Positions 1 through 51,452 are shown, counted from the first letter of the stretch. The stretch: DNA of 64,000 nt from a virus (IMGVR_UViG_3300029828_000006:27904-91903); one strand, 5' to 3'. A program made the numbers and translations. The notes: generated from the sequence alone by a model not told the origin.

Positions 1-139
1 TGGAGTCCATTAATACAAAACCATCCGGTAGTAGAGTAATTATCAGGCCAGGCCCATACACCAACACTCCATACTTTACGGCGGCACACTTCAGCCTGTC
101 CTTCCCTGATTTTTTTTACCGCCTGCATGATGTCCATCA
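1..139 (-). CDS. partial ORF (start in window, 3' end beyond left edge); C-terminal-module protein of the antirepressor locus
   Basis: ATG at 137-135 overlaps the stop of the Rha ORF (TGATG coupling); product MDIMQAVKKIREGQAEVCRRKVW... resembles the 53166..53462 product (RERIKTGYAIVCRRVSW...). Confidence 0.35.
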
Positions 140-844
140 CTCACCTCCCCAACCGATCACCTGGAATTGCCCCATTTTGGGGTGATACCAGCGTTTTCCT
201 CGGTGTTCAGCCTCCGACATCATCCGGTTAAAAGCATTCATGAAGGGAGATAAGGCCACGATTGAACGACGCGACAATACCCCCTCTGGAGTTAAAAACT
301 CATGCGTATCTGTGGGGATCCGGTAAGCGTTGACCAGGTTGCGGCATTTGGCTTCGGTCAGGCCGCATTTTGCCGCCAGCTGGCGGTAGCCAATGTAACC
401 TTCCGGCATGTTGCCCTTCTTGATTTGCTCGACGGTTTCTACCACTTGGCTAACCTTTGACTCAACAACATGAAGCCGCTTTTGCTGCTGAACTGCATTT
501 GCAGCCATTGCGGCGATCATCTCTATTTCGGTCAACGGCTGGCGTGCTTGTTCTTCCAGTTCGCGCCAGCGGTCCACCAGCCGGGCGGTGAATTCGGGAG
601 AGAGCTGCGCAACGACAATAATGCTGTCTCGTTTGCCTTGCTCGCCTTCGAAGACGTAAGCCTCGACACTACGGCGTAGTCCTAAGTTATTGATTTTTTC
701 GAAAACCTGCAATGCAGGAAGTTGAATAACTCCAGATTTAGCCAGGCGCTCTATTGATATTTTTACGTTATCTGGACGACTTCCCACCAGCTCCGCGATC
801 TCAATGCTGGTCATTGATGGCTTTTCAAGAATGCAGATATCCAT
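137..844 (-). CDS. Rha-family phage regulatory protein / antirepressor (Ant-like)
   Basis: N-terminal MTSIEIAELVGSR...ISIERL Rha-type motif; overlaps upstream Icd-like ORF as in P1 immI; ~90% DNA-identical paralog at 53470..54108. Confidence 0.7.
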   Translation of the reverse strand: MDICILEKPSMTSIEIAELVGSRPDNVKISIERLAKSGVIQLPALQVFEKINNLGLRRSVEAYVFEGEQGKRDSIIVVAQLSPEFTARLVDRWRELEEQARQPLTEIEMIAAMAANAVQQQKRLHVVESKVSQVVETVEQIKKGNMPEGYIGYRQLAAKCGLTEAKCRNLVNAYRIPTDTHEFLTPEGVLSRRSIVALSPFMNAFNRMMSEAEHRGKRWYHPKMGQFQVIGWGGE

Positions 845-1068
845 CAGTGTGCCTCCGCAATTCCGGGATTGGTAATATTGCGATACCAGGGATTAGTGTT
901 TGGTTGTGGGGAAGTAGAGAAACGACCAGTAAGAACACCATGCTGATCAGGGATCAGAGAACGGGCTTCTTTTTCGGTTGCGGCAATTGCGAAGTGATCG
1001 CAGTGTTTTTGCAGGGAGTGGAAACGCCAGATGAATTCTGGACGTGAGCAAGGATTGGCATTAACCAT
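844..1068 (-). CDS. Icd-like host cell-division inhibitor (small immI protein)
   Basis: 74 aa, FIWRF motif, immediately upstream of and overlapping ant-like gene; SD GAGG 8-11 nt upstream of ATG. Confidence 0.5.
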   Translation of the reverse strand: MVNANPCSRPEFIWRFHSLQKHCDHFAIAATEKEARSLIPDQHGVLTGRFSTSPQPNTNPWYRNITNPGIAEAH

Positions 1069-1129
1069 AGTTACGGCCTCACTAACAGGTTTAACAACCT
1101 GCTACCCGCTGTCAAACAGGTGGCAGGAC

Positions 1130-1240
1130 GTGACAGGGTTGACAGACTGGCGTTAGTGAAACCAGCAGGCCGAAGCCTCCCCATCACGCCCCACCATAAT
1201 TCGGGCGTAACGCGGTTTACGGACACAAAAATACCGCAAT
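1130..1240 (-). ncRNA. candidate c4-type antisense RNA element in icd/ant leader
   Basis: Leader segment (+ coords 1152-1160 gttagtgaa) is the reverse complement of the icd RBS region (1077-1086 cctcactaac); exact RNA ends not determinable. Confidence 0.25.
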
Positions 1241-1417
1241 ATCGGAAATCTGCGGTTGTCCGCACTAACATTCAGGCTGTCAAACCTGGTCGCAGAATTT
1301 GCTACGACGGCATGAATATAAGCCTGAAAACATGGAAGATCAACTAAAAATTTCAGCAATGGATGACTTCAGTCGATGATGCAGATCATACATTCCGATT
1401 TAGAAACAGCAAATTAA

Positions 1418-1429
1418 TTTTCTAACACA
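1418..1429. promoter_or_regulatory. operator-like motif TTTTCTAACACA (putative C1-type repressor site) upstream of immI-like leader
   Basis: One of at least 7 copies of the same asymmetric motif found in intergenic regions upstream of operons; flanked by partial inverted copy TTAGAAA at 1400-1406. Confidence 0.4.
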
Positions 1430-1481
1430 GATTATCGAGCGAGCATTTTCCGATCATTGGGATGTTTTGTAGACACACAGG

Positions 1482-2444
1482 TCATCCCCTAAAGCCCGCC
1501 GGGATTGACCAATCCTCACGGTCAAATTCAGACCGATAGCCACGCTGTTTCATCAGGTCAAAGGCTTCACCAATGGTTGCACACCCCAGGGAGCCAGAAT
1601 AATCCATTGAGAAATCCAGGGCACTGGATTGTTTAGGCTTATTCACTGCGGTAGCGGCACTACGTATCCATGCAAATTTTTTTGCCAGCTTTTCAGCGGT
1701 ACGATACAGAGCCTGCCGTTTTGCGTGCCCCTCGTCTGAACGACGCTTTGCAGCTCTCGCTTTTGCCGCCGCCAGGCAGTGGTTGGTATGTTCTTCCCTG
1801 ATTACTGGTTTTTTATCCAGCACCCCATTATCCGCTTGAGAACTATCTGCTGGTGAAGCCTTTGGCTGAACCGCGCATGATCTTTCTCTTCTTTTTGCTA
1901 TAGAGTGACTCTTATTTTCTATTGGCTGTTCATTTTGAACATGGGGGGACTTGTTCAATTTGAACAGGGGGTTCCCAGTTTCAAAAAAATAACGAACCTT
2001 TGAAATCAACTGCTTAACCAGTTTTGTGGCGTTGGCAAATTTGATGCCCTGCTTACCCCCTATCTCCATTGCTACATGAATGAAGTGGAGAAATTGTGTC
2101 GTAAACCGATATACGTTACACACCTGGGCATTGTTATTCGCTACCTGATGTTGCTTAACAAGCATTCCGCACTTCGTCGCTTCAGCAAATGCCCGGCGCA
2201 CAGTAGAAATACTGCGTCCTGTAATCTCGGACATATCAGCATATGAGCGACGGATCATGTATTCATCGGTAGACCCTGCCAGGTTGGCGAACTCGGCAAT
2301 AATGGCGCTATGTGAAGGGGAAAGAAGACCGCTATGACGAGCAAAAAAACTCAACTGATGACCTTTGATTTTTTTGTGGTATTCAGTGTTGTTTTTATAC
2401 TCAGAAGTGTTGAAAGTTACTGAAACTGAATTTAAAATACTCAC
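1482..2444 (-). CDS. HTH DNA-binding protein, possible replication initiator (RepL-like position)
   Basis: 320 aa, predicted helix-turn-helix region (ITGRSISTVRRAF), basic C-terminal half; own operator-like motif upstream at 2616-2629; family not resolved. Confidence 0.3.
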   Translation of the reverse strand: MSILNSVSVTFNTSEYKNNTEYHKKIKGHQLSFFARHSGLLSPSHSAIIAEFANLAGSTDEYMIRRSYADMSEITGRSISTVRRAFAEATKCGMLVKQHQVANNNAQVCNVYRFTTQFLHFIHVAMEIGGKQGIKFANATKLVKQLISKVRYFFETGNPLFKLNKSPHVQNEQPIENKSHSIAKRRERSCAVQPKASPADSSQADNGVLDKKPVIREEHTNHCLAAAKARAAKRRSDEGHAKRQALYRTAEKLAKKFAWIRSAATAVNKPKQSSALDFSMDYSGSLGCATIGEAFDLMKQRGYRSEFDREDWSIPAGFRG

Positions 2445-2506
2445 CAGATAGTTCCGTGAAAAAATCTATCTACCGTATAAATCTATGGCAGTGGATTTAT
2501 ACACCC

Positions 2507-2539
2507 AAAAAGCCGCTTCTCAGCGGCTTTTGCTTTTTT
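2507..2539. terminator. bidirectional rho-independent terminator hairpin
   Basis: aaaaagccgcttctcagcggcttttgctttttt: GC stem flanked by A-run and T-run. Confidence 0.55.
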
Positions 2540-2615
2540 GGCAGTCGCTACCGGAGCAGTGACCGCGATCCTACTCGATCCCATCCACCAGGATCAACAG
2601 TGTATATAAATACAC

Positions 2616-2629
2616 TATGTTAGAAATTT
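2616..2629. promoter_or_regulatory. operator-like motif (reverse orientation AAATTTCTAACATA) upstream of 1482..2444
   Basis: Motif family TTTCTAACA; sits between terminator and start of the 320-aa gene. Confidence 0.35.
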
Positions 2630-2644
2630 AACTTAACAAGGCAA

Positions 2645-3643
2645 TCACCCCCTTCTAGAAACGAAGAGTAACGGGGTGGTGTTTTTGTTCTCCTTCGGTG
2701 ATAACTCTGGTTCTTTCTTGCCTGATACCGGTAAGCCATAAGTAGCATTTGCCCCAAGAGATTCAAGCATCGCAGCCACTATGCGGGCATCATCTTCAGA
2801 CTGCATACGGCAGAGCGCCCGGCGCTGTTCTGCGCTGATAAAAACAGGCATTTCCTGGATAGCGTCACGCAAAATCCGGCGGCATTGCTTTGCATTTTCC
2901 CCTTGGCTTTCCATCATCGCTGTTTGAGCGCGCAGCTTATCTCGAAGCTGTATGTTTTCCACTTCAAGGAGCATCAATTCTGATTCCAGGGCTTCACGAT
3001 GTGCAGATTCGAGCATGGCTTGCTGATTTTTCATTGCTGAAAAGTGGTGAACCAGATCCGTAGCTGCGTTATCGGTAAAACCTTGTTCGATAAGTGCTGC
3101 ATGAATAGCCGCATCGCGCTCTTCTACTGATTCAAGCATCAGGCTTTTCTTGTCGAGGCTGATATAGTTAGGCACAGTTACGTAATCAAAGCCGTGGAAA
3201 GACTTTACCAGGGATACCGATGAATCTGGACCAGATGTAGCCCACGACCAACCACCAGCACCAGAATTAATCATGCCCTGAACAATACGCCCGGTGTCTG
3301 TATCCAGTATTTCCTGCGTATGAGTAACAATGCCGTTGTCGTCAATCGAAATGTCGATAGTCCTGTTTGACGGCACGTTCTCCAATACAACAGGCTTCCC
3401 ATCTACCATCACAACAGAGACTTCCGGCAAGTTCAGGCTTTTCGTTTTGTTATAGTGCATCGCCCGGCGACCATGACCGTAATAACCATACATCTCACCC
3501 AGCGCGATACGCTCTTTTGTTTCTGGCGAGTTGAATGTGTCTCGTACCGACTGAATGACGTAATTTCGGTTGTTCTGCGGTGTGTGTTTGCGGATTTTCT
3601 CTACCAGGGAGAAGCGATCCGTAACAGTATTCAGTGATTGCAT
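2645..3643 (-). CDS. hypothetical phage virion/head-associated protein
   Basis: 332 aa ORF, last gene of the long minus-strand operon 10558->2645; no recognisable motif. Confidence 0.3.
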   Translation of the reverse strand: MQSLNTVTDRFSLVEKIRKHTPQNNRNYVIQSVRDTFNSPETKERIALGEMYGYYGHGRRAMHYNKTKSLNLPEVSVVMVDGKPVVLENVPSNRTIDISIDDNGIVTHTQEILDTDTGRIVQGMINSGAGGWSWATSGPDSSVSLVKSFHGFDYVTVPNYISLDKKSLMLESVEERDAAIHAALIEQGFTDNAATDLVHHFSAMKNQQAMLESAHREALESELMLLEVENIQLRDKLRAQTAMMESQGENAKQCRRILRDAIQEMPVFISAEQRRALCRMQSEDDARIVAAMLESLGANATYGLPVSGKKEPELSPKENKNTTPLLFVSRRG

Positions 3644-3656
3644 TATTTCCCTCCGG

Positions 3657-5339
3657 TTAATTGCTCATCACAAATTTTGCAAAGTTTATTAACTGTTCTG
3701 GCGTCCAGTTTTCCGGATCGTCACCGGACGACAACGGCGCGGATTCGTACATACCATGCTCGCTGTTTTGCTCTGATTCATTCGCCTTAAACTCTTTGAT
3801 CATGGTGTTGAGAGTGTCATCGTCGATGTGCAACTGCTCGGTGAACAGATAACGCATAAACGCGTCACTACCAGCCAGTTTCGGGTTGTTCTGGATCTGG
3901 TCCATAATTTGGGAGATGACAGCAACAAAGTTGGCGCGTGCATCCAGTTCTCGGTTTTCCTCTTCCTGGATAGCAGTGTTCATTGAGTTGAATTGCACGT
4001 CATAAGGGCGGTTTGTTTCGGTGTAAACCTTGCCGTATTTATAAGCGAGGTGAATGTCCAGAAGCCGATAAATAGTTCGCTGGGCGGCCTGTCTGATCCA
4101 GTTCGCACGCAATGCAGCCTGGATAGCAGTTTGCTGCCAGCCGCCTTCTCCAAGCCCTCCGCTCATCTGATCAGCCCAGCCAAGCATTGTTGCGTCAATG
4201 CCGAGGCTTGCAGCAAGCTGCCGGAGGTGAAACATAACGTCTTCGATACCACTGATATCTGCGGGTATGGATTGCGTATCAATGGTGATGCCGTTCTTCC
4301 CGTCTCCCATAACAGGTATCAGATGGTTAAGCACAGTCGGAATAGCGTTAGCATTAATCGACCTTTGCGCCACCAGGTCACTATGACGCTTCAATGCCTG
4401 GCTGACGCCACGCGTATAGTTCGCCGCATTAACCGGGTCCAGTGTGTTCGTCGTAAGAGCAATCAGGCGGTCAATTTTGGCTGCATTATTTCGCGTTGAT
4501 TTCAGCGCGGCGAGCGAAGCACATAAATTAAGGTAAGGTTCATAGCTGTATTCCAGGAATGAAGTTCCGTAATTCTGCGTCTCCATTAACGGCTTATCAG
4601 CCTGATCACTTAACAGTGAGTACCCTTTTGTGCCGTAGCTAACCGGAATAACTTTATGCTGTGGCGTCCAATAGGGATTTTTCATGGAAACCAGATTCCA
4701 CGGTTCGGTTATTACTCTGCGCAAACTATGCGTATCCAGGATGTAATCACCACTGAATCCAACCAGCTGGCTACCGCGATAAAATTCCTGGACGAAATGT
4801 GGCAGAGTGTAATAACTGGACTCAATGCCTGTTATCCCCCTGCCCTGTTCAGCATAAGGTCGGACATAAGACACCCCAAAGATCGCCATGATCATGGCCC
4901 ATGAAGGAAGTCCGTCATTAATCATCGCCCCCAAATCAGCGGTTAACTCTTCACATCTACTTACTGCCTCGGCATCGGAACCATCCTTTGGCGAAAGGAT
5001 GAATGCCTGTCCGGTTTTTTTTGAAGGCGCAAGCGCATGTGCAATGTGAATGTTTAAAGCCGTCGAGATAGTCGGGCTTTTAGCCATCGTTTCCAGGATG
5101 TTGTACTTTTGCAGGCGCTCGCCGGGCAGTTCAGCGGATAAAGAAATTGAATCTGCCTCACTCGTCATGCCATCGCTATTGCTCCCCAGGATGCCTGGAC
5201 GTAAAGCAGACAGGCCGGAACGAGCAACGACACTATGTCCGCTCGTAAAAACGACCGGATCGGCGGGCGTAACATCACCACCGTTGAAGGCTTTCTTCAA
5301 TGCTGACAGAAAGCCTTTATTTTTGTCTTTCGTTGCCAT
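3657..5339 (-). CDS. hypothetical large phage protein (portal or injected head protein candidate)
   Basis: 560 aa ORF with SD GGTGA before ATG; position in operon after antirestriction-like genes; no motif-level assignment. Confidence 0.3.
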   Translation of the reverse strand: MATKDKNKGFLSALKKAFNGGDVTPADPVVFTSGHSVVARSGLSALRPGILGSNSDGMTSEADSISLSAELPGERLQKYNILETMAKSPTISTALNIHIAHALAPSKKTGQAFILSPKDGSDAEAVSRCEELTADLGAMINDGLPSWAMIMAIFGVSYVRPYAEQGRGITGIESSYYTLPHFVQEFYRGSQLVGFSGDYILDTHSLRRVITEPWNLVSMKNPYWTPQHKVIPVSYGTKGYSLLSDQADKPLMETQNYGTSFLEYSYEPYLNLCASLAALKSTRNNAAKIDRLIALTTNTLDPVNAANYTRGVSQALKRHSDLVAQRSINANAIPTVLNHLIPVMGDGKNGITIDTQSIPADISGIEDVMFHLRQLAASLGIDATMLGWADQMSGGLGEGGWQQTAIQAALRANWIRQAAQRTIYRLLDIHLAYKYGKVYTETNRPYDVQFNSMNTAIQEEENRELDARANFVAVISQIMDQIQNNPKLAGSDAFMRYLFTEQLHIDDDTLNTMIKEFKANESEQNSEHGMYESAPLSSGDDPENWTPEQLINFAKFVMSN

Positions 5340-5403
5340 GAATCACCGCAAATTGTTTCCAGTTTTGCGGCAGCATAATCAGTATGTGATTTCAGCGGTT
5401 GGT

Positions 5404-6801
5404 TTAGTTTTCCGTACGGCAATTATTTAGATCTGTAGAATTTTCAAACATAGCAAAGTTCAGACCTTTCCCTTCGCCAAATTCACCCTCAATTTCATCA
5501 GATACAGCAGACAAAATACGACGCAGATCAACATCGCCACCGCCGAACATATCGCCCAATGCCTGTTGTTTATGAGTCAGCTCGTCGTTGATTTTTTGCG
5601 CCATTTTTTTGAATGCTGTCCCCATACGCTTCGCACTGCGATTATTTGCTACGATGAATAGCGCCAATGCCTCAGCTTCTGGTGTACTGTCGCCGAATAA
5701 CCCCCTTTGGGCGATCACTTCTTCAACGGCCTGACCGTTGTCTTTGGCTTCACGTACAAGATTAATTGCTTCCTGGAGTGCTGCTATCGCCTGTGTATCC
5801 AGGCCATTAACCTGCTCTATACCGTCCACTAAGCCTGTTACTGCGTCATGGTGAGCGTCGCCAGACAGCGACTGCATTTGCGCAAAATCGCTGGCTGCCG
5901 TATTTAATGCGGTCAGGATATTACGCATTTCCGGATCTGGCTCTTCCGACACCAGCCGAACAAGCCTTTCATCCTTGTACGCTTTGGCAAAAATTGCATT
6001 CTGGATGCGATCGATAAGCTGTTTCGTGGGACGCCCATCGGCAGTAAGCAAGCCTGCCGTCGCTGTATCGCCAATTTCGCGCAAAAACGCACGAATAAAC
6101 GCATCATTGGACCGCGCCAGCAGATTTCCATCATCTGAAGGATTAAATAGCGCCATGACGCTCTCAGTGAGAAATTGCGCATCCGCATACGCTTTTTCAC
6201 TTGCTGCCATCTCTTGCAGATCGCTAATGTTTGAATCGCGGGCAAATTGAGCGCGGTCTACATCTGTGAGTCTTTCTCGCACCAGTACGGGCATAGACAT
6301 TTGCGAAATTTCGTCAGGATTCAGACCAAACTCTTTCGCATGGTCGATCAGGTACTGGCGATACTCATCCGCCTGTCCTTGCTCATAGGCACGCCAGATA
6401 CCCATACTCCTTCCGTTGCCGGATTCAACAACGTTGTCCGGACCAACTATCGGCGCTCCGTGGCTGCTCATACCGGAATCCGTTAATTGTGCCGGGCGTA
6501 AATTGGAGGCAATACGGTTAACCTGGAGTTTGCTGGATAGCCGGGTACGATCTCGTGGTTGGAGTTCTTCCGGGAAGGCCGGGTTAATCGTACCGTCAAG
6601 GTTGTTCGAAATGATCAGACTGCTGGCATCAACGACCTTAAAAGCCGTCTTTACCTCTGCACCTTTGCTGGTGACTACGTAGCTACTTCGCCCCAGGCGT
6701 GTTTCTTTCCTCTCTAATGAAGAAACCAGAGCAATGACGCTGTTAATATCTGCGGCCCCGGAAAGCGCAGAAGTAACTGATTTGTTCAAAATACACTCCA
6801 A
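5404..6801 (-). CDS. hypothetical phage protein
   Basis: 465 aa ORF in same operon; function unassigned. Confidence 0.3.
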   Translation of the reverse strand: MECILNKSVTSALSGAADINSVIALVSSLERKETRLGRSSYVVTSKGAEVKTAFKVVDASSLIISNNLDGTINPAFPEELQPRDRTRLSSKLQVNRIASNLRPAQLTDSGMSSHGAPIVGPDNVVESGNGRSMGIWRAYEQGQADEYRQYLIDHAKEFGLNPDEISQMSMPVLVRERLTDVDRAQFARDSNISDLQEMAASEKAYADAQFLTESVMALFNPSDDGNLLARSNDAFIRAFLREIGDTATAGLLTADGRPTKQLIDRIQNAIFAKAYKDERLVRLVSEEPDPEMRNILTALNTAASDFAQMQSLSGDAHHDAVTGLVDGIEQVNGLDTQAIAALQEAINLVREAKDNGQAVEEVIAQRGLFGDSTPEAEALALFIVANNRSAKRMGTAFKKMAQKINDELTHKQQALGDMFGGGDVDLRRILSAVSDEIEGEFGEGKGLNFAMFENSTDLNNCRTEN

Positions 6802-6883
6802 CTATAGAGAAAGCTGTGAGTGTAAAAAGTGTGTGATTTATGTGAGAACAGATAAGTGAAAGGGGCATTTCAGCCCCTTTTGA

Positions 6884-7252
6884 TTACCCGGCATAACCGT
6901 TAGCTTTCACCCAGCTTATGGTCTGCTCTTTAGCCTGCTCCAACGTAAGGAACTCGCCAACATAGTTTGAGATCCCACGCAGCGCATCAATAAATTCCAT
7001 TTGTGTGGACTTTGTGAAGACACCGCCCAGGAAGTCAGTCACTATCTTAGGGACTTCATCTACAACAGGATCAGTCTGTTGTTGCGGTTCCGCTGCCGGT
7101 TGCGCGGCAGTCCCCAGGCCCAATTTCAGCATCACATCAACAATCTGCTTACCAATGGTGACGCGTTGCAATACTGGCGCAGTTTTCTGCGCCTGCATTA
7201 GATCTGATAGCTCTTTACCTAATTTCAGGCGGTCTAAAACAGAGATGGTCAT
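6884..7252 (-). CDS. small hypothetical phage protein
   Basis: 122 aa; start overlaps stop of upstream 656-aa gene. Confidence 0.3.
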   Translation of the reverse strand: MTISVLDRLKLGKELSDLMQAQKTAPVLQRVTIGKQIVDVMLKLGLGTAAQPAAEPQQQTDPVVDEVPKIVTDFLGGVFTKSTQMEFIDALRGISNYVGEFLTLEQAKEQTISWVKANGYAG

Positions 7253-9222
7253 TAAGCACCTCCCTGCTGAATTTCAGCCAGAATGTTGATCAGGTAGTCA
7301 ACTGCTGCACCAACAGTGGCTTCGTTCTCGTCGTATCGACCTGCACTGATTAGAGCGTTTGCTGCTTCCTGCACATGATCAAGTTCAGCACTAATGACCG
7401 TCAGATCGCGGGATGTAAACTGCTCCGGCACGGATTTCAGGTACTCCAGTGCTTTATCTGCCTCCTGATCAGCTTCATTTGCTGATTCACCCGTTTCTTC
7501 TGGCTCCTGTTCTGGTGCTGGTTGTGGTTGTGGTTGTGGTTGTGATTCTGGCTCAACCATATGCTCTGTTTTTACTTCGCTTGAATGATTTTGAAGGGCG
7601 TTATACACGTCCATAATGAAAAGGTTCTCCCCATCACTAAGTGGATACGCCACGTTTGGAAACGCTTTGCGGAAAAGAATTTTCACTTGCGCCTTGAATG
7701 TTTTCAGGTCACTGCCAAACAGGTCCACATAGCCATCAATATGTTTCGACATGCTGGACGCAACCAATTGGTCTGCAAAATCTTTCAGCTCATCTTCATC
7801 AGGAAGATAGAGCAACTCGTACTGGCTGACTTCTTCATCTGTCAGTTTACGGTCATACGTAATGATACCGTGACGAGCATATTCGTAATACTGATCAGCC
7901 TGGTCAGGACGATCAAGCACGGCTTTATTTCCATCCGGAACAGCACCAACACCAGCCGGGCGAGATTGAAGTGCATAGTGGTATTTACCTACATCTTGGC
8001 TCTCTGGTTGTAATACTGGGTTCGTTTCGGGGTCTGTCTGTGGTGGTTCGGAGTCTTCCAGCTGGCCTGGTAACACATCAACTTTATATTTATCTGCGTT
8101 ATGCTCTCGGTAGGCTTTAAGTAATTTGGTTGCAGCATCTGCCAAACTGCCTCCTTTGACAGCACTGGCATCAATACTGAATTTACCTTCAGGTGCTACT
8201 ATCGTAACGAAATTATCACTGCCGGACGTGACATAATTAACTTCAGCTCCATTATCCAGCACTGTTTTTCCGTCAATGGCAAGATTATGTTTTACATGTC
8301 GCAGCTGGTCACTAAACGCTCGTTCTTTCGTTTTTTCACCTTTAGCAGACAACAATTTATCGCGTTTTGCTTGTAATTCCTCGTTGATGGCTTTCTGGGC
8401 ATCAAGTTTTTTTTGCATCTCCGTAAGAGCAGCACGCTTTTCAGTCAGCCCACGTTGCGCAACTTCCACCTGATCAATCATTATTGACCGTTCTTCTGCC
8501 AGTTTATCTGCTTCATTGAGATAACTCTCAATATCTGCCTTCATTTTGTCCTGGCGCTCTTTTGCTTTCTTAAATTTTTCGCTGTTACGCTCAATCAAAT
8601 TAGATAGCGCCTGGCATACCTGGCTTAAAGAAACATCTCTCCCACCAATCGGGGCGACAACGTGAGTTACGTTACGTTTATTAAGTAAAAACTGAAATGC
8701 AACAAGCTCGTCGTTACTCTTTATTTTTGCCCCGTCAGCTGTTGGAGAGTGGAAAATTATGCTTGTACTCTGCCCGTCAGTAAGCGGTATCTGCGCGGTC
8801 AAAACAGGGATATTAGCTACCCGACGTACACGACCGATAATCGCACCACCAATACAATTACGTCCATTTTCATCGGTCCCAGCTTCATCAGTCCCTGCCA
8901 TAATATTCGTACCATTCAGGCCACGATTCAGCGCACGGACGAAAGCTCGCATTGTTTGAGCTAACCGAATTCTGGTTGTAGTTATGGACTCAAACATAGC
9001 TTCGTCAGACACAACCAGAATTTCATTGCCCATATAGGCAAGCTCAATATCTTCTAAGGTCGCCGCCTCAAAAATCAGGTCATCTTCGCTTAATTCTTCT
9101 GAAGACCAGCGACTTGGCATATAGCCGGGGATCGTATCAGCAAAAGTAGACTGAATATTAATTCGTAAAGGATTGTTAATCATGCTCATCCTCCAGGCGC
9201 GCGATTTCTTCTTTAAGAGCAC
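7252..9222 (-). CDS. large acidic phage protein (DarA-position candidate)
   Basis: 656 aa, central coiled-coil, acidic PQ-repeat linker (QPQPQPQP encoded by (GTTGTG)4 at 7520-7544); operon context after holin-like genes as in the P1 darA operon (from memory). Confidence 0.3.
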   Translation of the reverse strand: MLLKKKSRAWRMSMINNPLRINIQSTFADTIPGYMPSRWSSEELSEDDLIFEAATLEDIELAYMGNEILVVSDEAMFESITTTRIRLAQTMRAFVRALNRGLNGTNIMAGTDEAGTDENGRNCIGGAIIGRVRRVANIPVLTAQIPLTDGQSTSIIFHSPTADGAKIKSNDELVAFQFLLNKRNVTHVVAPIGGRDVSLSQVCQALSNLIERNSEKFKKAKERQDKMKADIESYLNEADKLAEERSIMIDQVEVAQRGLTEKRAALTEMQKKLDAQKAINEELQAKRDKLLSAKGEKTKERAFSDQLRHVKHNLAIDGKTVLDNGAEVNYVTSGSDNFVTIVAPEGKFSIDASAVKGGSLADAATKLLKAYREHNADKYKVDVLPGQLEDSEPPQTDPETNPVLQPESQDVGKYHYALQSRPAGVGAVPDGNKAVLDRPDQADQYYEYARHGIITYDRKLTDEEVSQYELLYLPDEDELKDFADQLVASSMSKHIDGYVDLFGSDLKTFKAQVKILFRKAFPNVAYPLSDGENLFIMDVYNALQNHSSEVKTEHMVEPESQPQPQPQPAPEQEPEETGESANEADQEADKALEYLKSVPEQFTSRDLTVISAELDHVQEAANALISAGRYDENEATVGAAVDYLINILAEIQQGGA

Positions 9223-9811
9223 GTGTCTTAGCTACTTCCTGAGACAAGGCAGCTTTAACATTACCCGTATCTTGCATTACTTTGTCTGACTTGCTCTGGA
9301 GTTTAGACAGTTTGTCGTTAGCATTAGCGATATCTTCACGGAGTGCATCACGTGATTCTTTCGCTTCAGCTAATTTCTGAGCGTTAGATTTAACTCCCTG
9401 CCGCTTCTTATTTCCGTCATCAATATTTTTTGCTGCACGAGCAAGTTTTCGAGCTAATGACTTCTGGAAAGAAGTTGCTCCACGATTAAATAAAGCCGCA
9501 AGAGATTGCCCCAAAGCCGACATTGTTTTTACTGGCTTGAACGGTACTGTTTTACCATTCAGTTTGATCCCAGATATATCACCGGTATCGTTAACCTGAA
9601 CTTCCATTGTCTGTTCATCAATACCAATAAGGGTAAACGTGCGCGTCATGATCCCATCTTTCTTCCTGCCATTACTTGCAGGGATCACCCTCGCTATCTT
9701 GTAACCACCTTTGCTGATTTCTTTGACGAGTTTTGCCAGCCCCTTTTCGTTTAACTCATCATAATTAAGAAGAACATAATTATTCTTATTTGACATCCCA
9801 GTCTCCTTCAC
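9176..9811 (-). CDS. hypothetical basic coiled-coil phage protein
   Basis: 211 aa, overlaps neighbours by 26-47 bp. Confidence 0.3.
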   Translation of the reverse strand: MKETGMSNKNNYVLLNYDELNEKGLAKLVKEISKGGYKIARVIPASNGRKKDGIMTRTFTLIGIDEQTMEVQVNDTGDISGIKLNGKTVPFKPVKTMSALGQSLAALFNRGATSFQKSLARKLARAAKNIDDGNKKRQGVKSNAQKLAEAKESRDALREDIANANDKLSKLQSKSDKVMQDTGNVKAALSQEVAKTRALKEEIARLEDEHD

Positions 9812-10232
9812 GCTTTTCGATCGTAAACTGGCGCTCTATGCAGTCATTGATAGGGAAAATGCGATAAAGCGGATTCAGTCGGCAGTTACCGTTAGTCAAT
9901 GTGACTTTCAGATCCCACTTCGTTGGCTCAAGATATTTCGTATCGATGAGCAAATACTCTTCTCTCTCACCGCGTTTTGAGGCGTCAACTGGTCGCGTTT
10001 TCCCTGAAATAACCACAGATGGATTTTTCAGGTCTTGCAACCAATATTCGATTTGAGCATTGCTGACCCAGCTTCGCTTAACACGTAGCGAAACAGGAAA
10101 TGCTATAGCTGATTCTTTCACTACAGCGTCACCAATACTCAAAATCTCAACACTCTTGCGACGAAAAATGAAACGGTCAATGATGGCAACAAATGCCATG
10201 ATAAAAATGAAATAATTTCCAAAGTTACCCAT
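9786..10232 (-). CDS. membrane-anchored protein (lysis-associated candidate, LydB position)
   Basis: 148 aa, single N-terminal TM helix (NYFIFIMAFVAIIDRFIF) then soluble domain; directly follows holin-like gene. Confidence 0.3.
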   Translation of the reverse strand: MGNFGNYFIFIMAFVAIIDRFIFRRKSVEILSIGDAVVKESAIAFPVSLRVKRSWVSNAQIEYWLQDLKNPSVVISGKTRPVDASKRGEREEYLLIDTKYLEPTKWDLKVTLTNGNCRLNPLYRIFPINDCIERQFTIEKREGDWDVK

Positions 10233-10558
10233 TATTTCTCTCCACCTTTTCCCCCATTCGCTATTACGCTTAAGAGATTCAAGACGTTACTAGCTCTGGA
10301 CTTCAAGCCCTGTAAAATTTCACTACCGTTGTTACTGGCAATCAGAACAACGCAGAAAATGATGCCTTCAGGCCATTCTTGGCTAACCGCCACCCCATAC
10401 CCCGCAAGCCCGGCTGTTACCGCAGTAAACAATTCACTCGCAAGATTGAGCAGGGACGCAGAAATGCGCCCGTCTCTAACTCCGAGAAGGAATACGCCGG
10501 TTCCACTTAGTAGGGATGTTATGACTACTACAGCCAGATTTTCATAATCTGCAAACAT
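10232..10558 (-). CDS. small multi-TM membrane protein, holin-like
   Basis: 108 aa, 3 predicted TM segments, first gene of operon; P1 lydA-like position. Confidence 0.4.
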   Translation of the reverse strand: MFADYENLAVVVITSLLSGTGVFLLGVRDGRISASLLNLASELFTAVTAGLAGYGVAVSQEWPEGIIFCVVLIASNNGSEILQGLKSRASNVLNLLSVIANGGKGGEK

Positions 10559-10634
10559 ACCCCTCCAGAAATAACATCTAATGCGCCACTAACTTAGTCA
10601 GTTTGTTATTTCCTTACAGGACATCTTCTAAAAT

Positions 10635-10660
10635 CTCCCCCCTTAACATACTAGGGGGGA
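10635..10660. promoter_or_regulatory. hairpin (C7/G7 stem) overlapping invertase ribosome-binding region
   Basis: tcccccc-ttaacatacta-gggggga ending 4 nt before invertase ATG at 10664. Confidence 0.4.
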
Positions 10661-10663
10661 CAT

Positions 10664-11224
10664 ATGCTTATTGGATACATTCGCGTATCAACTAATGACC
10701 AAAACACCGCTTTACAACGAAACGCCCTTGAAAGCGCAGGATGTGAGCTAATTTTTGAGGATAAGGCGAGCGGCAAAAAGGCTGAACGCCCAGGGTTAAA
10801 AAAGGTTCTGCGTATTATTTCCAGAGGTGACACCCTGGTCGTATGGAAGTTAGATCGTCTTGGGCGCAGCATGCGTCACTTGGTTGTGCTGGTGGAAGAG
10901 CTGCGTGACAGAGGCATTAACTTCCGAAGTCTCACTGACTCCATCGACACCAGTACACCAATGGGGCGCTTTTTCTTTCACGTAATGGGGGCGCTGGCAG
11001 AAATGGAACGTGAGCTTATCGTTGAACGTACACGCGCTGGACTTGATGCAGCTCGCGCAGAAGGTCGTATAGGTGGGCGTCGGCCTAAATACAAAGAAGA
11101 AACATGGCAGCAAATGCGGCGATTGCTGGAGAAGGGCATCCCCCGTAAGCAGGTTGCAATCATCTATGATGTGGCTGTTTCCACGCTTTATAAGAAGTTT
11201 CCGGCGTCATCATTTCAATCCTAA
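10664..11224 (+). CDS. cin: serine-recombinase DNA invertase (Cin/Gin/Pin/Hin family)
   Basis: 186 aa, MLIGYIRVSTNDQNT...VVWKLDRLGRS...GRFFFHVMGALAEMERELI; stop codon abuts left crossover site of an invertible tail-fibre segment. Confidence 0.9.
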   Translation: MLIGYIRVSTNDQNTALQRNALESAGCELIFEDKASGKKAERPGLKKVLRIISRGDTLVVWKLDRLGRSMRHLVVLVEELRDRGINFRSLTDSIDTSTPMGRFFFHVMGALAEMERELIVERTRAGLDAARAEGRIGGRRPKYKEETWQQMRRLLEKGIPRKQVAIIYDVAVSTLYKKFPASSFQS

Positions 11225-11241
11225 ACCTTGGTTTAAGAGAA
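11216..11241. promoter_or_regulatory. left crossover site (cix/gix-like, 12-2-12)
   Basis: caatcctaaacc TT ggtttaagagaa: dyad half-sites around 2-bp core; start of inverted homology with 15521-15546. Confidence 0.7.
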
Positions 11242-12873
11242 CTCGGTACCAGCGGTGAAAAGATCCCCCTGTTGAGTACGGCTAACACATGGAGTGCGCG
11301 CCAGACTTTCAACGGCGGGATCACCGGGGCGCTGACAGGGAACGCCGACACCGCGACGAAATTAAAAACAGCCATAAACATTAATGGCGTCAGATTCGAT
11401 GGTTCGGCTGACATTAATATCAATACTCTGGTATCGCGTGGTCGCGTAACGGCTCTGGGGGCGAATGCACAGGGGACATCCGGGATTCAGCTGTATGAGG
11501 CATACAACAATGGCTACCCTTCCCCCTATGGCAATGTGCTTCACCTTAAAGGTGCCACCGCTGCTGGCGAAGGTGAGTTATTCATTGGCTGGAGTGGCAC
11601 GAGTGGTGACCATGCGCCCGTACATATCCGTTCGCGGCGGGATACTGATTCTGCTAACTGGTCTGAATGGGCGCAGGTCTATACGTCAAAAGATTCCGTT
11701 CCCGGCGTTAATGCCAAAGGGAATCAGGACACCTCTGGTAATGCGGCTACAGCGACCAAGTTGCAGACAGCATGTACTATCAACGGTGTCTCGTTTGATG
11801 GTTCTAAAAATATTGAGCTAACGGCGGAAGATTTAAATCTACAGGAAACGGTAAACAAGGCTGATAACGCGGTTCAAAAGACAGGCGATACCTTGTCCGG
11901 TGGACTTACTTTTGAAAACGACTCAATCCTTGCCTGGATTCGGAATACTGACTGGGCGAAGATTGGTTTTAAAAATGATGCCGACAGCGATACTGATTCA
12001 TACATGTGGTTTGAAACAGGCGACAACGGCAATGAATATTTCAAATGGAGAAGTCGCCAGAGCACCACAACAAAAGACCTGATGAATCTTAAATGGGATG
12101 CTTTGTCTGTCCTTGTTAAAGCCCTTTTCAGCAGTGAAGTAAAAATATCGACAGTCAATGCACTAAGGATATTTAATTCATCTTTTGGTGCTATTTTTCG
12201 TCGTTCTGAAGAATGCCTGCATATCATCCCTACACGAGAGAATGAGGGGGAAAATGGTGATATAGGGCCACTACGTCCCTTTACACTTAATCTCAGAACT
12301 GGCCGTATAACTATGGGGCATGGTCTGGATGTTACAGGAGATATAACAACTAACGCCTGGGTGTATGCAAACAGGTTTGCTATTAACAGCAGTAATGGTA
12401 TGTGGATTCAGATGCGCGATAACAACGCTATCTTTGGGAAAAATATAGTTAACACTGATAGCGCCCAGGCATTGCTACGTCAGGACCATGCTGATCGCAA
12501 ATTTATGATTGGTGGTCTGGGGAATAAGCAATTTGGCATCTACATGATTAATAATTCAAGGACAGCCAATGGTACCGATGGTCAGGCGTACATGGATAAT
12601 AACGGGAACTGGCTTTGCGGCTCGCAAGTTATTCCCGGCAACTATGGCAATTTTGACTCCAGATATGTGAAAGATGTTCGACTTGGTTCACAGCAATATT
12701 ATGGAGTGAACAACTGGCAAACATGGAATTTCCAGTGCCCTTCAGGTCATGTATTGTCTGGTATTAATGTTCAGGATACAGGTTCCAACTCTGCCGATAA
12801 TATAGCGGGCGTTTATTACAGGCCCGTTCAAAAGTTTATAAATGGCACCTGGTATAATGTAGCGAGCGTTTAA
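11230..12873 (+). CDS. promoterless alternative tail-fibre C-terminal cassette (Sv')
   Basis: Reading frame open from the crossover site; N-terminal ~60 aa identical to residues ~485-545 of the expressed fibre; would fuse to constant part after inversion. Confidence 0.75.
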
Positions 12874-12874
12874 C

Positions 12875-13402
12875 ATGATGCACTTAAAGAACATAAAAGC
12901 GGGTAACGCTAAAACACTGGAACAGTATGAGTTAACAAAGAAACACGGAGTTATCTGGCTTTACTCTGAGGACGGAAAAAACTGGTATGAGGAAGTGAAA
13001 AACTTTCAGCCAGACACAATAAAGATTGTTTACGATGCAAATAATATTATTGTCGCCATCACTAAAGATGCCTCCACGCTTAACCCTGAAGGTTTTAGCG
13101 TCGTTGAGGTTCCTGATATTACAGCTAATCGTCGTGCTGATGATTCCGGTAAGTGGATGTTTAGGGACGGAGCTGTGGTTAAACGGATTTATACGGCAGA
13201 CGAGCAACAACAACAGGCCGAATCACAAAAGGCCGCGTTACTTTCCGAAGCAGAAAACGTTATTCAGCCACTGGAACGCGCTGTCAGGCTGAATATGGCG
13301 ACGGATGAGGAACGCGCACGACTGGAGTCATGGGAACGCTATAGTGTTCTGGTCAGCCGTGTGGATACGGCAAATCCTGAATGGCCACAAAAACCAGAGT
13401 AA
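12875..13402 (+). CDS. tail-fibre assembly protein, alternative copy (U')
   Basis: 175 aa, [11 protein letters not shown]...[14 protein letters not shown], paralog of 13431..13964. Confidence 0.8.
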
Positions 13403-17418: not shown

Positions 17419-17512
17419 ACGAACATAGCCCCTTCATAAGCAATGAACCAAAGGAGAGTATGCTCAGTTTGTGATTTCCGTTGTTCTTCCCCCAAATGCG
17501 GGGGAAGAATTA

Positions 17513-24794: not shown

Positions 24795-24869
24795 TTATTC
24801 CTCCGAAAAGCAGGTATCTGTTCATTTTCCAGAGGATAGGGAGTGTGTGATTTGCGATGGGGATTGAAT

Positions 24870-25160
24870 GAAGATCTTTGCTGGTCGAGAAGCGATTATT
24901 GAGGGTGATTTTTACACCTTAAGTGACGCTACTCACATATCCACAGAGTATTTTTATAAACCTTTTTCCATTTTTAATCCTTTTTAGATCCTTTTTAGGC
25001 GTCGCTGGAGCCAGTAGTGGCGCGGGCTGTAGAGGAGGCTGGTGTAAGATTTGCCCTCAATTAAATACGATCGGTGTAAGATTTGCCCTCAAAAGGTGTA
25101 AGATTTGCCCTCAAAAGGTGTAGTAATTGCCCTCAAAGTGATGTAAAAATTGCCCTCACC
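24870..25160. promoter_or_regulatory. plasmid replication origin region (oriV): GATC sites, DnaA-box-like ATATCCACA, AT-rich tract, iterons
   Basis: GATC at 24873 and 24987; ATATCCACA at 24937-24945; inverted iteron 24899-24918; direct iterons 25041-25158 end just upstream of repA. Confidence 0.6.
25041..25158. repeat. five direct iterons (GGTGTAAGATTTGCCCTCAA, ~22-bp spacing)
   Basis: Exact copies at 25041, 25073, 25095; degenerate copies at 25117 and 25138. Confidence 0.85.
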
Positions 25161-26319: not shown

Positions 26320-27027
26320 TCAGAATTTGATCACTCCACTCACAGCCCCCTTTAACGCACTTGTAGCCATGCCAGCGGCACCGTTGACCAAAGCAGAAAC
26401 ACCTGAGCCTGCGGATGTGTATTTCTGGAAAGTGATTGGGTATGACAAGAACTCTGACACCTGATCACGTGAGCGTGTGATTTCCCCAAGTTGCGTAGGA
26501 AATACGCGCATTTCTTCTTCCAGTTCTTTTCCGCCGTCCTGAGTCACCCGGTAGACACGGATTTTCATCAGATATTCAGGAGGAAGGTTTATTGTTCCAT
26601 CAGGATTTGTTACACGAGAACGACGCTCTTTGAACCAGTCCATGATCTTGCCATCTTCGGTATCCCTCACGGTCATAGTGACCGGTCCGGCGCTAACATA
26701 GGTTGGCTTGCTGAATTCTACGCTGCCGATCACCTTGCTTTCTGTCTCAATGTTTCCACTGCTGTAGGTGATATCCTTCACGAACATATCGAAGCCGTTC
26801 AGGCCATCCACTTCAACGGTCCACTGCCACCCCTGGGCGTAACGGATACGCATAGCGGCAGCAACAATATTTTTCCCGTAGGCAATATCGCTACTGTAAT
26901 TCCCGCTTACCCCGCCGCCTGATATGGCTTTATCAAGAATGTCGCTAATGAGGTTGCTGGTGAATGATTTCGTGTTAAATGACAATGCGGTGGTCAACAT
27001 TCTACCAACGCTGCTGAAAATACTCAC
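26320..27027 (-). CDS. hypothetical late/virion protein
   Basis: 235 aa, last gene of late operon. Confidence 0.3.
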   Translation of the reverse strand: MSIFSSVGRMLTTALSFNTKSFTSNLISDILDKAISGGGVSGNYSSDIAYGKNIVAAAMRIRYAQGWQWTVEVDGLNGFDMFVKDITYSSGNIETESKVIGSVEFSKPTYVSAGPVTMTVRDTEDGKIMDWFKERRSRVTNPDGTINLPPEYLMKIRVYRVTQDGGKELEEEMRVFPTQLGEITRSRDQVSEFLSYPITFQKYTSAGSGVSALVNGAAGMATSALKGAVSGVIKF

Positions 27028-33416: not shown

Positions 33417-33549
33417 GGTTAAGCCCTAAATTCGGGCGCGGCGTGAAGGTTCTTTTGACGGGCTAACAATACCTACTTTGTGATTTAGTCAATAGGTTTA
33501 GTAAAATAAAATATATTAACACGCATGTTGTTATGTGATTTAATTTTAG

Positions 33550-46706: not shown

Positions 46707-46856
46707 AGGTCGATCTGTCAGGTATCGAAAGGAAGATTTTCTGGAGATTGTGATTTTGGATGAAGGAGGGGGAATTCATAAAATGCACTTGCGCACAGTG
46801 CAACGGTGCGCTATAGTTATGGCATTCGGTAATCATCACGGAGGATCAAATGACTA

Positions 46857-51165: not shown

Positions 51166-51452
51166 CGTTATGACTCCCTACCGCGCTTCGGCTGAAAGTT
51201 AATCGTCAAAAGAACCTTCAACGGGAGCCGTTAGCGCGATGGATTATGTGCAGTTTGTGATTTCCAGAATAGTGTCAACCACTTTTTGAGGATTTTATTA
51301 TTTGACCGAAACTTGGCCTAAATCATGTTGATGTAGTTGATTGTTTTTATAACATAAAACCTCATTTTGTTTACATGAAGGACGGGGTAGTGAAGTTAAG
51401 GGTTTTAGGGACCGCGCTCGCGGCTAAGATGGTAAAGTATGGAGTTAATGAA

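What the first reader, a model, noticed from the sequence alone, without database searches (positions are those of the whole stretch)
2645..10558. Holin-led operon running into large virion-protein genes (Dar-like layout)
A small 3-TM holin-like gene and a TM-anchored partner open an eight-gene minus-strand operon that continues into 211-, 656-, 122-, 465-, 560- and 332-aa proteins of unknown function. In P1 the lydA/lydB lysis genes head the darA antirestriction/head operon (recalled from memory), and the sizes of the 211/656/122-aa proteins are close to Hdf/DarA/DdrA. Downstream members differ in size from P1 and may be novel injected proteins.
Basis: inference. Interest (0 to 1): 0.4.

Follow-up and report, generated by a model that had tools for sequence, protein, structure and literature searches.

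The report
D6-type phage darA antirestriction–head operon

Summary
The eight minus-strand ORFs exist exactly as described. The DNA is 96.9% identical to phage D6 and 100% identical to E. coli plasmid pF16EC0589-1. It occurs, always on plasmids, in 100 of 5,426 complete E. coli genomes.

All eight products are homologues of P1 proteins: LydA (43%), LydB (34%), Hdf (40%), DarA (39%), DdrA (33%), DdrB (64%, N-terminal half only), portal Prt (50%) and prohead protease Pro (43%). DarA, Hdf and Prt match the solved P1 virion chains. A Pro model's best fold match is the T4 gp21 prohead protease.

The "Dar-like layout" reading is therefore correct. The idea that the three downstream proteins are novel injected proteins is not: they are a short DdrB, the portal and the protease.

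Differences from P1:
- prt-pro follows ddrB directly.
- DdrB lacks its C-terminal HExxH peptidase half. This is a deletion allele shared by 86 plasmids and under purifying selection.
- P1's late-promoter box is absent. A different box, AAATCACANACT-N3-TANNNT, sits before lydA, ddrB and prt and before other late operons. The stretch is probably three late transcription units, not one operon.

Already known; low interest.

The parts
10591..10611 (-). Late-promoter-like element upstream of lydA: box AAATAACAAACT (10611-10600), 3 nt, -10-like TAAGTT (10596-10591). It occupies the position of P1 LPdar.
   Evidence: The motif is enriched (6 found vs 0.03 expected, all on the - strand).
10232..10558 (-). 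lydA, holin (108 aa)
   Evidence: 100% identical to D6 LydA and 43% to P1 LydA. PHROG 1527 holin, E 8e-39. Pfam Phage_holin_3_3 scores 18 bits, below its 28.4 cut-off. Three hydrophobic segments.
9786..10232 (-). lydB, LydA-holin antagonist (148 aa), with an N-terminal hydrophobic anchor
   Evidence: Pfam LydB PF16084, 87 bits against a cut-off of 28. 34% identical to P1 LydB. Hydrophobic segment 4-23.
9176..9796 (-). hdf (206 aa from ATG 9796; the maximal ORF of 211 aa starts at 9811): DarA_N-type domain plus a C-terminal helix. Capsid-inner-surface partner of DarA.
   Evidence: Pfam DarA_N, E 8e-18. PHROG 1620 Hdf-like, E 2e-76. PDB 9ukm_H (P1 Hdf), E 3e-25. AAGGAG ribosome-binding site before 9796.
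7252..9183 (-). darA (643 aa from ATG 9183; the maximal ORF of 656 aa starts at 9222): internal head / antirestriction protein
   Evidence: Pfam DarA_N (E 5e-40) and DarA_C (E 9e-19). NCBIfam NF052326 anti_RE_DarA, 1131 bits. PDB 9ukm_I (P1 DarA), E 9e-122 over residues 35-642.
6884..7252 (-). ddrA (122 aa)
   Evidence: PHROG 1855 DdrA-like, E 5e-50. 33% identical to P1 DdrA over 118 aa, E 8e-22. No Pfam family.
6859..6880 (-). Stem-loop directly after the ddrA stop codon (8-bp stem AAAGGGGC/GCCCCUUU). Terminator-like, with a weak U tract.
   Evidence: strand folding gives -14.1 kcal/mol, z -4.2. The consensus terminator scan did not flag it.
6819..6839 (-). Late-promoter-like element upstream of ddrB: box AAATCACACACT (6839-6828), 3 nt, -10-like TACACT (6824-6819). 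P1 has no counterpart here; its ddrA-ddrB gap is 12 nt.
5404..6789 (-). ddrB, short allele (461 aa from TTG 6789; the maximal ORF is 465 aa): ParB-like domain plus a helical region. It lacks the C-terminal HExxH metallopeptidase half of P1 DdrB.
   Evidence: Pfam ddrB-ParB, E 3e-42. 64% identical to P1 DdrB residues 2-442 of 995. 97% identical to the first 450 residues of the 1017-aa DdrB ORF of pTB423, then diverges after ...FAMFE. HExxH is present in P1 (872) and pTB423 (894) and absent here. dN/dS is 0.07.
5393..5443 (.). Deletion or replacement junction. These 51 bp have no counterpart in D6. At the same place D6 carries 1,110 bp (orf23 and the DUF4145 gene orf24), and pTB423 carries the ddrB C-terminal half, an hxr homologue and two divergent genes.
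   Evidence: blastn breakpoints. Annotations and ORFs. 86 PLSDB plasmids share the window's junction, and 4 carry the long form.
5372..5392 (-). Late-promoter-like element upstream of prt: box AAATCACATACT (5392-5381), 3 nt, -10-like TATGCT (5377-5372). It occupies the position of P1 LPpro.
   Evidence: The box is conserved upstream of prt in D6 and in the 73%-identity relative L009.
3657..5339 (-). prt, portal protein (560 aa)
   Evidence: 50% identical to P1 Prt. PDB 9ums_C (P1 Prt), E 1e-169. PHROG 1497 portal, E 6e-230. Pfam Portal_T4 scores 22.0, just below its 22.9 cut-off.
2645..3643 (-). pro, prohead (capsid maturation) protease (332 aa): N-terminal protease fold (about 1-165) plus a long C-terminal coiled coil (helix 191-263)
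2508..2531 (.). Terminator-like GC-rich hairpin flanked by A and T runs, between pro and repL. It probably ends the prt-pro unit.
   Evidence: Terminator scan. Strand folding gives -16.8 kcal/mol, z -2.6.

Best explanation
The region is the late-expressed lysis, defence-against-restriction and head-assembly cluster of a D6-like plasmid prophage, a P1 relative.

The working below is inferred from homology to P1; none of it was tested here. Late in lytic growth the genes are transcribed from late promoters.
- LydA is the holin and LydB its antagonist. Together they time lysis with an endolysin encoded elsewhere.
- Hdf and DarA bind as pairs to the inner capsid surface at penton-hexon junctions and contact the packaged DNA. 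They are needed for normal head size and for loading the other Dar proteins: DdrA, DdrB, and DarB and Ulx, which are encoded just outside the window.
- The Dar proteins leave the head with the DNA and protect it in cis from type I restriction.
- Prt forms the portal.
- Pro is the prohead protease that trims the major capsid protein and the N-terminus of DarA.

Three features differ from P1, and these are shown here:
1. prt-pro lies directly downstream of ddrB on the same strand.
2. DdrB is a deletion allele that keeps only the ParB-like N-terminal half.
3. The late promoters carry a different -22 box, and such boxes precede lydA, ddrB and prt. The stretch is therefore most likely three late units: lydA-ddrA, ddrB, and prt-pro.
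For: Identity of the element:
- 96.9% nucleotide identity to phage D6, whose genes at this locus are annotated lydA, lydB, hdf, darA, ddrA, ddrB, prt and pro.
- 100% identity to plasmid CP088384 over window 1-11853.
- Found in 100 of 5,426 complete E. coli genomes, always on plasmids.

Protein homology:
- blastp to all eight P1 proteins, E 6e-23 to 0.
- Pfam LydB, DarA_N (twice), DarA_C and ddrB-ParB; matching PHROGs; NCBIfam DarA equivalog.
- Solved P1 virion chains: DarA 9e-122, Hdf 3e-25, Prt 1e-169.

Rest of the Dar system:
- DarB (43% over 2,000 aa) and Ulx (48%) homologues lie within about 8 kb to the left of the window start in the identical plasmid.

P1 mechanism, from the literature:
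- Cryo-EM shows 55 DarA-Hdf pairs on the inner capsid, absent after DNA ejection. DarA residues 1-69 are not visible, which the authors read as cleavage by Pro. Dar proteins load in a set order (PMC12810830).
- Virion proteome and assigned roles (PMC9024508).
- Protection acts in cis (PMC12707154).

Promoter box:
- AAATMACAHACT occurs 6 times against 0.03 expected, and 9 times against 1.4 expected with one mismatch, all on the - strand.
- 8 of 9 sites are followed after exactly 3 nt by an NANNNT hexamer, and they lie upstream of lydA, ddrB, prt, R, pmgB, gene 23, gene 7 and mat. For lydA, prt, R and mat, P1's record annotates a late promoter before the same gene (LPdar, LPpro, LPs, LPmat).
- The box is conserved before prt, darB and the lysin gene in diverged relatives.

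Short ddrB is functional: 73 synonymous against 21 non-synonymous differences from D6, dN/dS 0.07.
Against: - No function was tested. All mechanism is transferred from P1 at 33-64% protein identity.
- DarB and Ulx are not in the window, so the full system rests on the identical plasmid record.
- The short DdrB lacks the domain proposed to process P1 DdrB, so its packaging and role could differ.
- The promoter assignment rests on motif statistics and position only. There are no transcript data, and no late activator was identified.
- The hairpin after ddrA has a poor U tract and was not flagged by the terminator scan, so read-through from lydA to pro remains possible.
Confidence: 0.92

Rival explanations
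1. One reading: the 465-, 560- and 332-aa proteins are novel injected (antirestriction) proteins specific to this phage.
For: Their sizes differ from the P1 gene that follows ddrA (DdrB is 995 aa). In P1, prt and pro are not in this operon. Pfam and NCBIfam give no family for the 332-aa protein.
Against: - The 465-aa ORF is 64% identical to the N-terminal half of P1 DdrB and has the ddrB-ParB domain.
- The 560-aa ORF matches the solved P1 portal, E 1e-169.
Confidence: 0.03
2. The short ddrB is a decaying remnant (pseudogene) left by a deletion, and the Dar system of this element is partly defective.
For: It ends 11 codons after the breakpoint in unrelated sequence (...FAMFE|NSTDLNNCRTEN). The HExxH half and the hxr homologue kept in pTB423 are missing.
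Against: - dN/dS is 0.07 against D6 and 0.06 against pTB423, with about 75-80 synonymous changes.
- The same junction is intact in 86 PLSDB plasmids.
- It has its own late-promoter-like box and a GGAG ribosome-binding site.
- A 449-aa ParB-only DdrB occurs in a distant relative, L010.
- Iyer et al. predicted that the N-terminal ParB fragment is the packaged part in P1 (PMC5512222).
Confidence: 0.07
3. The eight genes form one operon transcribed from a single promoter upstream of lydA. On this reading the internal AAATCACANACT boxes are not promoters; they could be binding sites for another regulator, or chance.
For: All eight genes are on one strand with short gaps. No good sigma-70 promoter was found on the - strand inside the stretch. 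The hairpin after ddrA lacks a clear U tract.
Against: - The box is about 200-fold enriched and strand-specific.
- It keeps a fixed 3-nt spacing to a -10-like hexamer.
- For lydA, prt, R and mat it precedes the genes before which P1's record annotates late promoters.
- The prt copy is conserved in a relative with diverged flanks.
- P1 transcribes prt-pro from its own late promoter.
Confidence: 0.2

Closest known systems
Escherichia phage D6 orf21-orf30 (MF356679 / NC_050154; Gilcrease & Casjens 2018) and the D6-like plasmid prophages of E. coli and Salmonella
   Same: Same genes in the same order at 96.9% nucleotide identity. LydA and LydB are 100% identical, Prt 99.6%, Pro 98.5%, DarA 94.7% and DdrB 95.8%. 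The short DdrB is shared. The late-promoter-like boxes before lydA and prt are shared.
   Different: - D6 has an extra 1,110 bp between ddrB and prt (orf24 with DUF4145, and orf23). The window has 51 bp there instead.
- The last residues of DdrB differ.
- The ddrA-ddrB segment is more diverged (dS 0.27) than lydA-hdf (dS about 0.01), so the operon is a recombination mosaic.
Phage P1 darA operon (lydA-lydB-hdf-darA-ddrA-ddrB-hxr) with LPdar, together with the P1 Dar system (DarB and Ulx)
   Same: The first six genes are homologous and in the same order, with near-identical sizes for Hdf, DarA and DdrA. The same Pfam domains are present. The holin and antiholin lead the antirestriction genes. 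DarB and Ulx homologues are present in the same element.
   Different: - Protein identity is only 33-64%.
- DdrB is 461 aa rather than 995 aa and has no HExxH peptidase half.
- No hxr, lydC or P1-type lyz in the window.
- The P1 -22 box AAGTKACTW is not used. A different box sits at the same distance from the -10 hexamer.
- There is a 94-nt ddrA-ddrB spacer with a hairpin and a box, against 12 nt in P1.
Phage P1 prt-pro late operon (LPpro), divergent from darB
   Same: Homologous portal (50%) and prohead protease (43%), adjacent and in the same order, preceded by a late-promoter-type element.
   Different: In P1 this pair lies about 5 kb away from the darA operon on the opposite strand, next to darB. 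Here it directly follows ddrB on the same strand, and repL, the immI-like genes and a lysin gene lie between it and darB.
T4 gp21 / HK97 gp4 / herpesvirus assemblin capsid maturation proteases
   Same: [quoted passage not shown] His57 and Ser133 are invariant.
   Different: Sequence identity is only 8-12%. No Pfam protease family matches. There is a long C-terminal coiled coil of about 70 residues. The catalytic triad was not verified by superposition.

Membership tests
P1-type Dar (defence against restriction) system / darA operon | DarA with DarA_N and DarA_C domains | tested here: met
   Pfam scores 136.7 and 68.1 bits against a cut-off of 27. NCBIfam equivalog NF052326 scores 1131 against 350. 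PDB 9ukm_I, E 9e-122.
P1-type Dar (defence against restriction) system / darA operon | Hdf paralogue (DarA_N domain plus C-terminal helix) encoded immediately upstream of darA | tested here: met
   Pfam DarA_N, 64.8 bits. PDB 9ukm_H, E 3e-25. hdf overlaps darA by 8 nt.
P1-type Dar (defence against restriction) system / darA operon | DdrA homologue downstream of darA | tested here: met
   PHROG 1855, E 5e-50. 33% identity to P1 DdrA, E 8e-22.
P1-type Dar (defence against restriction) system / darA operon | DdrB with an N-terminal ParB-like domain | tested here: met
   PF18763, 144 bits. 64% identity to P1 DdrB residues 2-442.
P1-type Dar (defence against restriction) system / darA operon | DdrB C-terminal zincin (HExxH) peptidase half, as in P1 | tested here: not met
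   The protein ends at residue 461 and has no HExxH. P1 has HELGH at 872 and pTB423 has HEIGH at 894.
P1-type Dar (defence against restriction) system / darA operon | DarB and Ulx encoded in the same genome | tested here: inconclusive
   None in the 64-kb window (tblastn). Both are present to the left of the window start in the plasmid that is 100% identical over window 1-11853: DarB 43% and Ulx 48% identity to P1.
P1-type Dar (defence against restriction) system / darA operon | lydA-lydB head the operon behind an Lpa-type late promoter (AAGTKACTW-N4-TANNNT) | tested here: not met
   The gene order is met. The P1 box is absent upstream of lydA and is not enriched in the window. A different box with the same geometry is present.
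P1-type Dar (defence against restriction) system / darA operon | The proteins are packaged in the head, ejected with the DNA, and protect in cis against type I restriction | not testable with these tools
   Known for P1 only (PMC12810830, PMC9024508, PMC12707154).
LydA holin (Pfam Phage_holin_3_3) / LydB antagonist (Pfam LydB) | Sequence membership of both families, with the two genes adjacent | tested here: met
   LydB scores 87.4 bits against a cut-off of 28. LydA scores only 18 bits against 28.4 in Pfam, but hits PHROG 1527 at E 8e-39 and is 43% identical to P1 LydA. The genes overlap by 1 nt.
Phage portal protein (P1 Prt type) | Full-length homology to a structurally defined portal | tested here: met
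   PDB 9ums_C (P1 Prt), E 1e-169 over residues 30-524. PHROG 1497, E 6e-230.
Capsid maturation serine protease (T4 gp21 / HK97 gp4 / assemblin fold) | Protease fold | tested here: met
Capsid maturation serine protease (T4 gp21 / HK97 gp4 / assemblin fold) | Catalytic Ser and His in the active-site positions | tested here: inconclusive
   H57, S133, D153 and E171 are invariant in 39 homologues. Their equivalence to the T4 gp21 catalytic residues was not checked by superposition.
D6-like plasmid prophage | Near-identical DNA and synteny with phage D6, carried on a ~90-kb plasmid | tested here: met
   96.9% identity over 99% of the region. 104 PLSDB plasmids cover at least 80% of window 1-12000. 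All 106 places in E. coli genomes are on plasmids.

The most novel reading that the evidence does not exclude
Two things the evidence does not exclude as new.

(a) D6-type phages use a late-promoter '-22 box' (AAATCACANACT, 3 nt before TANNNT) unrelated in sequence to P1's palindromic AAGTNACTT box. That would imply a late activator with changed specificity, and it would split this cluster into three late units, with a promoter dedicated to ddrB.

(b) The dominant natural ddrB allele is a ParB-only protein. This amounts to a natural experiment suggesting that the peptidase half of P1 DdrB is dispensable.

I could not read the D6 genome paper to see whether (a) is already described.
Probability: 0.35. 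Interest if true: 0.25.

Novelty: already known. Interest (0 to 1): 0.12.

Why it matters
As a discovery it matters little. The locus is an annotated, widespread gene cluster of a known phage-plasmid family, and its P1 counterpart has genetics, proteomics and a 2026 cryo-EM structure.

It has three practical uses:
1. It corrects the RefSeq/PHROG label 'tail fiber protein' for the prohead protease Pro.
2. The short DdrB allele and the accessory-gene hot spots around it give natural variants for dissecting which Dar parts are needed.
3. The candidate D6-type late-promoter box gives a testable handle on late gene control in a phage-plasmid group common in clinical and livestock E. coli and Salmonella.

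Tried and rejected
- P1 late-promoter box. I took AAGTKACTW-N4-TANNNT from the P1 record and searched the window. It gave 12 hits with up to 2 mismatches against 14.9 expected, and none upstream of lydA. Rejected as the promoter type here.
- Palindrome CTAAGTTAG upstream of lydA. It is not recurrent (11 against 8.9 expected). Rejected as a shared regulatory site.
- Sigma-70 scan. It found fewer sites than in shuffles and none usefully placed on the - strand.
- DdrB peptidase half. Pfam does not detect the peptidase in the P1 or pTB423 DdrB C-terminal halves. I used the HExxH motif and Iyer et al. 2017 instead.
- Papers not held. Piya et al. 2017 (PMC6011833) and Gilcrease & Casjens 2018 (PMC5800970) could not be read. 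P1 roles are therefore quoted second-hand from PMC12810830 and PMC9024508, and I could not check what the D6 paper says about late promoters.
- Pseudogene idea for the short ddrB. I considered it and judged it unlikely.

Full report
**Observation**

These are maximal ORFs. Ribosome-binding sites and two independent annotations favour Hdf at 206 aa (ATG 9796), DarA at 643 aa (ATG 9183) and DdrB at 461 aa (TTG 6789).

The first five genes overlap by 1, 11, 8 and 1 nt. Gaps of 94, 64 and 13 nt follow.

Hydropathy shows three hydrophobic segments in the 108-aa protein, the third only 12 residues long. The 148-aa protein has one N-terminal hydrophobic segment.

**Origin of the DNA**

- The region is 96.9% identical over 99% of its length to Escherichia phage D6.
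- Window 1-11853 is 100% identical to E. coli plasmid pF16EC0589-1, CP088384.
- 104 PLSDB plasmids cover at least 80% of window 1-12000.
- 100 of 5,426 complete E. coli genomes carry the region, always on a plasmid.

The window is a D6-like plasmid prophage, a known relative of P1 (PMC6799933).

**Gene identities**

The D6 record annotates the genes as lydA, lydB, hdf, darA, ddrA, ddrB, prt and pro. I tested this directly against P1 (NC_005856).

| Product | blastp identity to P1 | Other evidence |
|---|---|---|
| LydA | 43% | PHROG holin, E 8e-39; Pfam below cut-off |
| LydB | 34% | Pfam LydB |
| Hdf | 40% | Pfam DarA_N; PDB 9ukm_H, E 3e-25 |
| DarA | 39% | Pfam DarA_N and DarA_C; NCBIfam DarA equivalog, 1131 bits; PDB 9ukm_I, E 9e-122 |
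| DdrA | 33% | PHROG DdrA-like, E 5e-50; no Pfam family |
| DdrB | 64%, P1 residues 2-442 of 995 only | Pfam ddrB-ParB |
| Prt | 50% | PDB 9ums_C, E 1e-169 |
| Pro | 43% | No Pfam, NCBIfam or PDB sequence match |

The Dar-like reading is right. In P1, lydA and lydB do head the darA operon behind LPdar, and the 211-, 656- and 122-aa products are Hdf, DarA and DdrA.

The suggestion that the downstream members are novel injected proteins is wrong. They are a short DdrB, the portal and the prohead protease.

The other two Dar components are not in the window. They lie to the left of its start in the identical plasmid: DarB is 43% identical to P1 over 2,000 aa, and Ulx is 48% identical.

**How it most likely works (by homology to P1, not tested here)**

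- Hdf and DarA bind as 55 pairs to the inner capsid surface at penton-hexon junctions and touch the DNA. They are gone from heads that have ejected their DNA. DarA residues 1-69 are not visible in the structure, which the authors read as removal by Pro. DarA and Hdf are needed to load DdrA, DdrB, DarB and Ulx (PMC12810830; PMC9024508).
- Protection against type I restriction acts in cis on the packaged DNA (PMC12707154).
- LydA is the holin and LydB its antagonist, according to the P1 record.
- Prt is the portal.

**Differences from P1**

*1. Layout.* In P1, prt-pro is a separate late operon next to darB. Here it follows ddrB directly.

*2. DdrB.*
- The window's protein is 97% identical to the first 450 residues of the 1017-aa DdrB ORF kept in plasmid pTB423. 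After ...FAMFE it ends in 11 unrelated residues.
- The HExxH motif of the C-terminal half (P1 position 872, pTB423 position 894) is missing. Iyer et al. assigned that half to a zincin peptidase and predicted that the N-terminal ParB fragment is the packaged part (PMC5512222).
- The deletion also removed an hxr homologue.
- 86 PLSDB plasmids share the window's junction, and only 4 carry the long form.
- dN/dS of the short gene is 0.07, so it is maintained and is not decaying.
- A 449-aa ParB-only DdrB also occurs in a distant relative.

*3. Promoters.*
- P1's late box AAGTKACTW-N4-TANNNT is absent.
- Instead, AAATMACAHACT occurs 6 times against 0.03 expected. With one mismatch it occurs 9 times against 1.4 expected. 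All copies are on the minus strand.
- 8 of the 9 copies are followed after exactly 3 nt by a -10-like hexamer. They sit upstream of lydA, ddrB, prt, R, pmgB, gene 23, gene 7 and mat.
- For lydA, prt, R and mat, P1's record annotates a late promoter before the same gene: LPdar, LPpro, LPs and LPmat.
- The box also precedes the lysin gene in the identical plasmid and in D6.
- In more distant relatives it precedes prt, darB and the lysin gene.
- A stable hairpin follows ddrA (-14.1 kcal/mol, z -4.2), and a terminator-like hairpin follows pro.

I therefore think the stretch is three late units: lydA-ddrA, ddrB, and prt-pro. Read-through cannot be excluded without transcript data.

**Novelty**

The locus is already known and annotated, and it is common. 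I could not read the D6 genome paper or Piya et al. 2017, so I cannot say whether the late-promoter box has already been described. Interest is low.

Noticed in passing
window 5381-5392, 6828-6839, 10600-10611, 17466-17477, 24842-24853, 33475-33486, 46745-46756, 51252-51263 (all - strand); also L004 8366-8377 (+): A 12-nt box AAATCACANACT followed after 3 nt by a -10-like hexamer precedes the late (morphogenesis and lysis) gene runs: lydA, ddrB, prt, R, pmgB, gene 23, gene 7, mat and the lysin gene. It is a likely D6-type late promoter. It sits at the same distance from the -10 as P1's box, but the sequence is unrelated and not palindromic. A ninth copy at 26472-26483 lies inside an ORF and lacks the hexamer.
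   Followed up: partly
window 5393-5443; L001 (D6) 6736-7845; L005 (pTB423) 5340-8100; L009 2398-3875 and 7353-8170; L010 8468-9574: The gaps ddrA|ddrB, ddrB|prt and prt|pro are hot spots for accessory genes in relatives. D6 carries a DUF4145 gene and a small gene with a signal-peptide-like start. L009 carries SSB, a Shedu-type SduA_C gene and small genes. L010 carries a Tad2-like gene. pTB423 carries an XRE regulator and an hxr homologue. The window has the minimal, empty form.
   Followed up: partly
window 5404-7252 compared with 9176-10558: Synonymous divergence from D6 is uneven. It is about 0.27 in ddrA and ddrB, but 0.01-0.02 in lydA, lydB and hdf, and 0.05-0.09 in darA, prt and pro. This indicates recombination within the cluster.
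   Followed up: no
window 2645-3643: RefSeq (for both D6 and P1) and PHROG 1801 label the prohead protease Pro as 'tail fiber protein'. The fold search shows it is a T4 gp21-type capsid protease, so the label is an annotation error that is propagating.
   Followed up: yes
window 10664-13402 and beyond 11853: The cin invertase and the invertible tail-fibre C segment follow the operon. Identity to CP088384 stops at 11853, and the blastn hits to D6 and P1 beyond that point are on the opposite strand. The segment is apparently in the other orientation, or is a different fibre allele.
   Followed up: no
window 24855-25160 (- strand view, upstream of the pmgB-like gene): There are several direct repeats of TTGAGGGCAAATCTTACACC-like units (iteron-like) next to the repA-like plasmid replication gene, just upstream of one late-promoter box.
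   Followed up: no
window 1-64000 (tblastn); L004 8422-8907: The window has no homologue of P1 Lyz, LydC, LydD or Hxr. The likely endolysin of this element is a TIGR02594-family / CHAP-like peptidoglycan hydrolase. It is encoded just left of the window start and has its own late-promoter box.
   Followed up: partly
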